This document shows positions 9,907 through 10,026 of a DNA stretch of 10,192 bases, piece after piece. The translations under genes were made by a program, and so were the position numbers. The notes beneath the pieces were generated by a model that was not told the DNA's origin, searched no databases, and worked only from the letters and a program-made list of their open reading frames with translations. Source of the DNA: a virus. Its lineage: Duplodnaviria > Heunggongvirae > Uroviricota > Caudoviricetes. Positions within the stretch are counted from its first letter, which is position 1, and every line of letters starts with the position of its first letter. The DNA lies in the IMG/VR virus record IMGVR_UViG_2698536471_000005; one strand, 5' to 3'.

Positions 9907-10026
9907 ATGTCATCAAAGAACAGAACCCGCAGAACAACAACCCGCAACATCCGATTTCCAAACCAGATGATTGAACAAATTAACATCGCTCTTGATCTGA
10001 AAGGTTCAGGAAACTTTTCAGCGTGA
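9907..10026 (+). CDS. Small basic protein (possible ribbon-helix-helix / YlcI-like prophage protein), 3' end truncated by IS insertion
   Basis: ATG at 9907 with GGGGA 6 nt upstream. Translation MSSKNRTRRTTTRNIRFPNQMIEQINIALDLKGSGNFSA, where NIRFPNQMIEQINIAL resembles the beta-strand/helix-1 of RHH (Arc/CopG-like) proteins. The stop codon TGA is the first 3 nt of the IS terminal repeat, so the native C-terminus is missing. Not in the ORF track (below its size cut-off). Confidence 0.5.
   Translation: MSSKNRTRRTTTRNIRFPNQMIEQINIALDLKGSGNFSA

What the first reader, a model, noticed from the sequence alone, without database searches (positions are those of the whole stretch)
9907..10026. Small RHH-like ORF on the opposite strand beside cos
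A short basic ORF with an RHH-like N-terminus (RNIRFPNQMIEQINIAL) sits on the strand opposite the late genes, in the position where lambdoid phages carry lysogen-expressed accessory genes such as bor. It resembles my recollection of YlcI/DUF3950-type prophage proteins, but I cannot verify that. Its function is unknown and here it is truncated.
Basis: inference. Interest (0 to 1): 0.45.

Follow-up and report, generated by a model that had tools for sequence, protein, structure and literature searches.

The report
IS-truncated YlcI/YnfO prophage gene
This is the first 39 codons of a small, very common lambdoid-prophage gene (YlcI/YnfO, DUF3950) cut off by an insertion sequence; the intact protein is predicted to be a ribbon-helix-helix DNA binder of untested function, so the feature is real but ordinary.

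The parts
9907..10026 (+). 5' remnant (39 codons plus stop) of a ylcI/ynfO-family (DUF3950) gene. It encodes the basic N-terminal arm, the predicted beta-strand (RNIRFP), helix A and the GSGNFSA turn. Helix B and the C-terminal tail are missing. The TGA stop at 10024..10026 comes from the IS end.
10024..10192 (+). Left end of an IS3-family insertion sequence. The terminal inverted repeat starts TGAACCGCCCCGG. The orfA start is at 10078 ([22 protein letters not shown]...). The element runs off the window.
   Evidence: (99.4% identical to copies annotated as IS3 family transposase)
9708..9906 (.). Conserved spacer between cosN and the ylcI start. It contains cosQ (AGGACCC at 9731..9737, equivalent to lambda 48473-48479 by position), a palindrome at 9743-9759, interleaved inverted repeats at 9805-9845, and an SD-like GGGG 8-11 nt before the ATG. 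It presumably holds the ylcI promoter, which has not been located.
   Evidence: 7.6% mean divergence against 24% at codon position 3; no consensus sigma-70 site on the + strand
9683..9707 (-). cosN. The 25 nt are identical to the left end of phage lambda, and the 12-nt cohesive end GGGCGGCGACCT lies at 9696..9707.
8974..9453 (-). Terminase small subunit gene (Nu1-like), divergent from ylcI.
   Evidence: RefSeq annotation of the near-identical locus L001, offset 5659
7074..9002 (-). Terminase large subunit gene, inactivated by an amber codon at 7875..7877 (CAG in L001, TAG here).

Best explanation
The feature is a pseudogene: the first 39 codons of a ylcI/ynfO-family gene of a lambda-like, cos-packaging prophage. 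An IS3-family element inserted after codon 39 and supplies the stop codon. That much is shown.

The next step is predicted. The intact protein of 61-79 aa is a ribbon-helix-helix (RHH) domain covering residues about 13-50. It is preceded by a basic arm (KNRTRRTTTR) and followed by a short tail that is not conserved.

The mechanism is inferred by analogy with Arc, Mnt, CopG and similar proteins. Two chains would pair their N-terminal strands (N14-I15-R16-F17) into a beta-ribbon that reads bases in the major groove, with N14 and R16 in the positions of Arc N11 and R13. The invariant NFS at the start of helix B would clamp the phosphate backbone. The protein would then act as a small sequence-specific repressor or autoregulator.

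Its gene is always antisense to the late operon, or to the primase operon in phage satellites. It is therefore most likely made in the lysogen and silenced by late transcription.

The 39-aa product encoded here lacks helix B, which is half of the hydrophobic core and dimer interface, so it should be non-functional. The prophage is decaying: its large terminase gene also carries an amber codon.

The confidence of 0.8 applies to the identity, the truncation and the RHH-type DNA-binding nature. The specific regulatory role is rated at only about 0.5.
For: Identity and truncation.

Real protein-coding gene:
- There are 25 distinct alleles of codons 1-50, with 12/9/38 variable sites at codon positions 1/2/3.
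- Mean dN is 0.053 and mean dS is 1.06, a ratio of 0.05.
- 91 of 93 copies are intact.
- The conserved block starts at the SD/ATG when the upstream DNA is unrelated and ends near codon 50, where the tails switch with the downstream gene.

RHH fold:
- The AF2 model has pLDDT 75-87 over residues 11-50, helices at 19-32 and 37-55, and an extended 13-18.
- Foldseek returns the same class.
- hhalign aligns TTRNIRFPNQMIEQI with Arc PQFNLRWPREVLDLV.
- R16, F37, S38 and V41 are invariant across 26 homologues down to 30% identity.

Antisense placement next to operon starts.

Transcription of ylcI in K-12: ybcW-ylcI is listed as a convergent excludon from RNA-seq (PMC12288877).

Prophage decay.
Against: - No experiment on any family member was found. 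PHROGs lists the function as unknown.
- No Pfam RHH model matches. Only 1 of 26 members reaches E=0.09 to RHH_6.
- PDB sequence search finds nothing.
- No operator could be identified. The upstream regions of the two terminase contexts share no convincing motif.
- No consensus sigma-70 promoter was found on the + strand.
- The regulatory target is therefore pure inference.
Confidence: 0.8

Rival explanations
1. YlcI is the RHH antitoxin of a type II toxin-antitoxin pair. Its N-terminal RHH would bind the operator, its variable C-terminal tail would neutralise a toxin encoded just downstream, and the IS has broken the module.
For: - The C-terminal tails co-vary with the downstream gene.
- In the 77-aa class (Qin ynfO), a co-directional DUF1398 gene (ydfO) starts 42-57 nt downstream.
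Against: - For the allele class of this window (tails STE[SRN]SGMNYIIK and the single STESSSMNYIIK copy, 47 copies), no copy has a same-strand ORF of at least 60 aa within 250 nt. The next gene is a convergent 46-60-aa hydrophobic ORF.
- Lambda, DLP12 and the other classes also have convergent neighbours.
- The tails are only 11-29 aa and are not conserved.
- DUF1398 is not a known toxin. This last point is from my own knowledge and was not tested.
Confidence: 0.07
2. YlcI is a packaging-site factor. It would bind near cos or pac, or bind the small terminase subunit, and modulate DNA packaging or cos cleavage. Examples would be protecting the prophage cos or interfering with competitors.
For: - The gene is adjacent to terminase genes of two unrelated TerS types: Nu1/cos, and Terminase_2 without a lambda cos.
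- The cosN-to-ylcI spacer is much more conserved than synonymous sites.
- In capsid-forming satellite-like elements, a DUF3950 domain is fused to the N-terminal HTH of a Terminase_2 TerS (P0246 and P0207).
Against: - Homologues in integrase/AlpA/primase satellites are not next to terminase genes or a lambda-type cos.
- The gene is antisense to the late transcript, so it should be shut off when packaging occurs (inference).
- Lambda packaging is classically defined by cosQ-cosN-cosB plus terminase and IHF, with no need for this ORF (established knowledge, not tested here).
- The known PICI packaging redirector Rpp has a different fold, wHTH (PMC6739421).
Confidence: 0.08
3. There is no gene. 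The ORF is a chance reading frame inside DNA that is conserved because it flanks cos.
For: - The neighbouring non-coding spacer is itself highly conserved.
- The ORF is not annotated in the lambda reference record.
Against: - dN/dS is 0.05 with a 12/9/38 codon-position pattern.
- The protein is conserved with saturated synonymous change in phages whose upstream DNA is unrelated and lacks cos.
- Homologues down to 30% identity occur in other element types.
Confidence: 0.01

Closest known systems
E. coli K-12 YlcI (b4589, DLP12 prophage) and YnfO (b4533, Qin prophage); NCBIfam NF041551 YlcI_YnfO_N; Pfam PF13132 DUF3950; PHROG_949
   Same: - Same family, with 94% identity over residues 1-49.
- Same position and orientation: divergent from nohD/nohA (Nu1 homologues) across a lambda-type cos.
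   Different: - This copy is cut after residue 39 by an IS.
- Its intact allele class (61 aa) has a different C-terminal tail and a different downstream neighbour.
Unannotated 64-aa ORF of phage lambda, complement(48109..48303) of NC_001416
   Same: It is the orthologous position, about 200 nt left of the right cohesive end. Over the 39 codons dN is 0.034 and dS is 0.61.
   Different: - The lambda copy is intact.
- It is not in the reference annotation.
- It must not be confused with the annotated lambda 'orf-64' (lambdap73, between Q and S).
Arc, Mnt, CopG, omega and NikR-N ribbon-helix-helix repressors
   Same: - Same predicted topology and size.
- The NIRFP motif aligns with Arc NLRWP.
- The turn plus NFS at the helix B N-terminus fits the RHH pattern.
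- These proteins are the top structural matches.
   Different: - No significant sequence or HMM similarity.
- Dimerisation, DNA binding and operator are all untested.
Lambdoid lysogenic-conversion 'morons' such as bor and lom
   Same: It is a small accessory gene in the region between lysis and cos, transcribed against the late operon. bor lies about 1.4 kb further along the same strand in lambda and DLP12.
   Different: - bor is an outer-membrane lipoprotein, whereas YlcI is a predicted cytoplasmic DNA binder.
- YlcI is far more conserved and more fixed in position than typical morons. It was found in 4549 of 5426 complete E. coli genomes.
IS3-family insertion sequences (IS629/IS1203 group; the name is from my recollection)
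   Same: - Terminal TG...
- The inverted repeat TGAACCGCCCCGG.
- An orfA beginning [15 protein letters not shown].
- 99.4% identity to RefSeq 'IS3 family transposase' copies, and 94.7% to the IS1203-like copy in L048.
   Different: Only 169 nt are in the window, so the other end and the target-site duplication cannot be seen.

Membership tests
YlcI/YnfO (Pfam DUF3950, NCBIfam NF041551, PHROG_949) | Match to the family HMM above the curated cutoff | tested here: met
   - Fragment against Pfam: 32.9 bits, cutoff 25.
- Fragment against PHROG_949: E=1.8e-21.
- Fragment against NCBIfam: 18 bits, cutoff 30, because it is truncated.
- Intact 61-aa allele: 35.2 bits against NCBIfam and 67.5 bits against Pfam.
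YlcI/YnfO (Pfam DUF3950, NCBIfam NF041551, PHROG_949) | Complete conserved core (residues about 10-50, including NFSAWVIEAC) | tested here: not met
   The ORF ends at residue 39 (NFSA), and WVIEACRRRL is replaced by the IS. It is a remnant of a member, not a functional member.
YlcI/YnfO (Pfam DUF3950, NCBIfam NF041551, PHROG_949) | Prophage context: antisense, next to the terminase genes | tested here: met
   Window, lambda, DLP12 and Qin, and Terminase_2-type phages.
Ribbon-helix-helix (MetJ/Arc) superfamily | Strand-helix-helix topology of about 45 residues | tested here: inconclusive
Ribbon-helix-helix (MetJ/Arc) superfamily | Sequence or profile similarity to RHH families | tested here: not met
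   Only 1 of 26 members hits RHH_6, at E=0.09. hhalign against Arc gives P=0.005 over 23 columns, and against CopG P=0.27. The PDB profile search gives nothing.
Ribbon-helix-helix (MetJ/Arc) superfamily | Obligate dimer with an intermolecular beta-ribbon that binds DNA | not testable with these tools
   Only single-chain prediction was available, and no binding assay is possible.
Type II antitoxin (RHH class) | Co-directional, closely spaced toxin gene downstream | tested here: not met
   None of the 47 copies of this allele class has one. Only the 77-aa class has a co-directional DUF1398 gene.
IS3 family insertion sequence | Terminal inverted repeat starting with TG, and an orfA with an HTH at the left end | tested here: met
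   TGAACCGCCCCGG at 10024 and orfA from 10078. RefSeq annotates 99.4%-identical copies as IS3 family transposase. The complete element in L048 has orfA of 108 aa plus orfB of 296 aa.
IS3 family insertion sequence | Short (3-4 bp) target-site duplication flanking the element | not testable with these tools
   The right end lies beyond the window.
Lambda-type cos site | cosN sequence and cosQ at the canonical spacing | tested here: met
   There is a 25/25 match to the lambda left end. AGGACCC at 9731..9737 aligns with lambda 48473-48479. The identity of that motif as cosQ is from my own knowledge.

The most novel reading that the evidence does not exclude
YlcI would be a lysogen-expressed RHH repressor whose target is the unusually conserved roughly 200-nt cosQ-ylcI spacer and the adjacent terminase region. 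It would keep terminase expression or cos cleavage silent in the prophage, or sabotage packaging by competing cos phages and satellites. The fusions of DUF3950 to a TerS HTH in capsid-forming satellites would then be a 'Rosetta stone' for this link to packaging. If so, lambda itself would carry an overlooked regulator next to cos.
Probability: 0.1. Interest if true: 0.6.

Novelty: already known. Interest (0 to 1): 0.15.

Why it matters
For this window it matters little. The feature is a broken copy of a curated, extremely common prophage gene, inside a prophage that is already decaying.

The family has some wider value. It is present in about 84% of complete E. coli genomes and in phage lambda itself, where the reference record does not annotate it. 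It is under strong purifying selection and still has no assigned function. A predicted RHH fold gives a concrete, cheap hypothesis to test: a small dimeric DNA-binding regulator made in the lysogen.

Tried and rejected
- **Source of the window.** An exact search for the ylcI-IS junction in the species-representative genome collection found nothing. IMG/VR gave one contig with the same insertion point, but with the other IS end abutting ylcI. The source genome was therefore not identified.
- **Complete E. coli genomes.** No complete E. coli genome has this junction. The best hits are two-piece matches at about 93%.
- **PDB sequence search.** A profile search found no solved relative.
- **RHH by sequence.** Pfam RHH models do not match, and hhalign against CopG is negative.
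- **Lambda 'orf-64' in the literature.** It turned out to be a different ORF, lambdap73 between Q and S. The reported lysogen expression and the Nu1 two-hybrid interaction for 'orf-64' therefore must not be transferred to this gene.
- **PICI Rpp.** I considered this TerS-binding packaging redirector as a possible relative and rejected it, because it has a winged-HTH fold.
- **Promoter and RNA.** No consensus sigma-70 promoter lies on the + strand upstream of the ORF, and there is no Rfam hit in the window.
- **Shared operator.** I looked for a motif common to the cos-type and Terminase_2-type upstream regions. Only a chance-level 7-mer was shared.
- **Lambda cosN near satellite homologues.** None was found.
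- **Unavailable resources.** The afdb50 fold library was not available, and the lambda ribosome-profiling paper (PMC3718152) is not held.

Full report
**1. The observation**

Window 9907..10026 (+) is an ATG-initiated ORF of 39 codons ending in TGA: MSSKNRTRRTTTRNIRFPNQMIEQINIALDLKGSGNFSA. A short ORF is not evidence of a gene, since 21 ORFs of at least 30 aa overlap the last 1.7 kb. This one, however, has strong family matches:

- It matches Pfam DUF3950 above the gathering score, at 32.9 against 25 bits, E=5.9e-8.
- It matches PHROG_949 at E=1.8e-21.
- The NCBIfam model YlcI_YnfO_N scores only 18 bits against a cutoff of 30, because the fragment lacks the second half of the model.

The cos-to-ORF DNA (9660..10026) is 99.7% identical to a chromosomal prophage of E. 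coli OkiPb01713. There RefSeq annotates a 61-aa 'YlcI/YnfO family protein', WP_001329960.1, whose first 39 residues are identical. That intact allele passes NCBIfam at 35.2 bits.

**2. Surroundings**

The window's late genes are on the - strand. The small terminase subunit is at 8974..9453 and the large subunit at 7074..9002, placed by the 5659-nt offset to the annotated locus.

Positions 9683..9707 (-) are identical to the first 25 nt of the lambda genome, which is cosN. AGGACCC at 9731..9737 aligns with lambda 48473-48479; from my own knowledge that is cosQ.

**3. The truncation**

The intact allele reads ...TTTTCAGCGTGGGTTATTGAAGCC.... The window reads ...TTTTCAGCG TGAACCGCCCCGGAAATCCTGGAGACTAAAC....

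From 10024 the sequence is the terminal inverted repeat and orfA start (ATG at 10078) of an IS3-family element. It is 99.4% identical to copies that RefSeq annotates as IS3 family transposase. The IS end provides the TGA stop. What is lost is WVIEACRRRL plus the tail.

**4. It is a real, selected protein gene**

I collected 93 copies from E. coli, Shigella, E. albertii and IMG/VR prophage contigs. Of these, 91 are intact ORFs of 61-79 aa. Only the window and one near-identical IMG/VR contig are cut.

Over codons 1-50 there are 25 distinct alleles:

- Variable sites by codon position number 12/9/38.
- For pairs with dS above 0.1, mean dN is 0.053 and mean dS is 1.06, a ratio of 0.05.

In one group of prophages the upstream DNA is unrelated. 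It has no lambda cos and a Terminase_2-type small subunit. There, homology begins at the Shine-Dalgarno/ATG and the protein is kept through saturated synonymous change. At the 3' side, similarity stops near codon 50, and the C-terminal tail switches together with the downstream gene. The unit conserved by selection is therefore exactly the 50-residue domain, not cos-flanking DNA.

**5. Distribution and synteny**

The cos-ylcI segment is found in 4549 of 5426 complete E. coli genomes, with a median of 2 copies, and in 163 phage records.

In K-12, ylcI (DLP12) and ynfO (Qin) sit in the same place, divergent from nohD and nohA. Phage lambda has a 64-aa homologue at complement(48109..48303) that the reference record does not annotate. 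It is not the annotated 'orf-64' (lambdap73), so literature on that name does not apply.

In lambda and DLP12 the same strand carries bor about 1.4 kb further on.

More distant homologues (30-70% identity) are few: 172 clusters at 50% identity in 1.8 billion proteins, many of them artefacts. They lie in integrase/AlpA/primase/AntA-Bro elements, which are P4-like or PICI satellites. There too they are the lone antisense gene, divergent from the primase operon.

**6. Fold**

An AlphaFold2 model of the 61-aa protein, built with a 26-sequence alignment, has mean pLDDT 73, rising to 75-87 over residues 11-50. It shows an extended segment at 13-18 followed by helices at 19-32 and 37-55.

- Foldseek: the same class, but never significant, with best E of 1.1.
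- hhalign: TTRNIRFPNQMIEQINIALDLKG aligns on Arc PQFNLRWPREVLDLVRKVAEENG (P=0.005). N14 and R16 then fall on the base-contacting Arc N11 and R13, and I15 and F17 fall on the core residues L12 and W14. The roles of the Arc residues are from my own knowledge.
- Conservation: across homologues down to 30% identity, the invariant residues are R16, F37, S38 and V41. That is the ribbon arginine and the start of helix B.

Against this, no Pfam RHH model matches and no PDB sequence relative exists. I rate the RHH fold as likely, at about 0.8, but not proven.

**7. Mechanism**

- Shown: identity, truncation, selection, synteny.
- Predicted: the RHH fold.
- Inferred: the protein is a homodimeric, sequence-specific DNA binder acting as a small repressor or autoregulator. 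It would be made when late transcription is off and silenced by the converging late transcript.

K-12 RNA-seq lists ybcW-ylcI as a convergent overlapping transcript pair (PMC12288877), so the gene is transcribed.

No operator or promoter could be defined. The 198-206-nt cosN-to-ATG spacer is nonetheless strikingly constrained. Mean pairwise divergence is 7.6%, against 24% at codon position 3 and 4.7% at positions 1+2. It contains interleaved inverted repeats at 9805-9845, which are candidate sites.

The 39-aa product of this window lacks helix B and should be inactive. The prophage also has CAG changed to TAG in terL at 7875..7877.

**8. Rivals**

- *Antitoxin.* Only the 77-aa class has a co-directional downstream gene (DUF1398). 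The window's class has none in 47 copies.
- *Packaging factor.* This is suggested by adjacency to two unrelated terminase types and by DUF3950 fused to a TerS N-terminal HTH in a capsid-forming satellite-like element. It is weakened by the satellite homologues that sit far from any terminase or cos and by the antisense orientation.
- *Chance ORF.* Refuted.

**9. Verdict**

The finding is accurate and the interpretation correct. The object is a known, curated family member inactivated by an IS. Novelty: already known. Interest is low for this locus. There is modest residual interest in the untested function of the family.

Noticed in passing
L002 3110..3304 (-), which is NC_001416 complement(48109..48303): The phage lambda reference record does not annotate its own 64-aa YlcI/YnfO homologue next to the right cohesive end. 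The annotated 'orf-64' is a different gene, lambdap73 between Q and S, so the two are easy to confuse in the literature.
   Followed up: partly
L005-L044; 3.4-3.6-kb ENA contigs; garbled proteins: Many apparent YlcI homologues come from unrelated taxa, such as Cohnella, Streptomyces, Pedobacter and a 3566-bp 'plasmid' of Arcanobacterium hippocoleae. They are 3.5-kb pieces of the right end of lambda, often with indel errors. This looks like lambda control or spike-in DNA contaminating assemblies, and it inflates the apparent host range and the number of clusters. A paper on A. hippocoleae even lists ylcI and ynfO.
   Followed up: partly
L048 1891..3216 (IMGVR_UViG_2534681674_000020): This contig is 99.9% identical to window 2327..10051 and has an IS3-family element at exactly the same nucleotide of ylcI. 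The opposite IS end abuts ylcI, however, and the far end truncates the lysozyme gene, so the DNA between has been deleted. The IS is only 94.7% identical to the window's. The site therefore looks like an IS hotspot. The target just downstream (GAAGCCTGCAG) resembles the inner part of the IS inverted repeat (GAATCCTGGAG).
   Followed up: partly
window 7875..7877 (-): There is an amber codon in the large terminase gene: CAG in the near-identical intact prophage L001, TAG here and in L048. The prophage therefore carries two inactivating lesions within 2.2 kb.
   Followed up: yes
window 9708..9906: The non-coding spacer between cosN and the ylcI start is almost as conserved as non-synonymous sites: 7.6% mean divergence against 24% at codon position 3. 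This is far more than the 7-bp cosQ would explain. The spacer contains a palindrome, ATGATAAT.ATTATCAT (9743-9759), and interleaved inverted repeats, ATCAATTA/TAATTGAT and TGACGCAG/CTGCGTCA (9805-9845).
   Followed up: partly
L213 5590..6363 (E. coli CP027459.1): A satellite-like element carries an integrase, a D5_N primase, its own Terminase_2 TerS and a capsid gene. It has two tandem DUF3950 genes, and the second (P0246, 120 aa) is fused to the N-terminal HTH of a Terminase_2 small terminase. The element sits inside a lambdoid prophage, next to a 61-aa Terminase_2 fragment and to the prophage's own DUF3950 gene (9576..9776). This resembles the 'helper-embedded satellites' of bioRxiv 10.1101/2022.07.18.500453.
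   Followed up: partly
L129-L163 (match at about 4001): Distant DUF3950 homologues lie in integrase/AlpA/AntA-Bro/primase elements (P4-like or PICI satellites). Each is the only gene on its strand, divergent from the primase operon. A long antisense ORF (for example 357 aa in L146, 3592..4665) overlaps them and looks spurious.
   Followed up: partly
L001 4024..4048: The otherwise near-identical intact prophage of E. coli OkiPb01713 has a G-to-C change inside the 12-nt cohesive-end sequence of cosN (GGGCGGCGAGCT instead of GGGCGGCGACCT).
   Followed up: no
L050, about 100 nt upstream of the ylcI ATG: Another prophage has IS3-family orfA sequence replacing the cos side of the spacer, with homology resuming at AATCAATTATGACGC. 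This is a second, independent IS junction in the cos-ylcI region. In O26, O103 and O111 genomes an IS3/IS1203 copy also lies just downstream of ylcI.
   Followed up: no
L001 4566..4706 (-), beyond the window's IS: The window's ylcI allele class is always followed by a convergent 46-60-aa hydrophobic ORF (MSGEVQMDFMLTVSGVVILSIAYTA...), annotated as a hypothetical protein. It may be a small membrane peptide.
   Followed up: no
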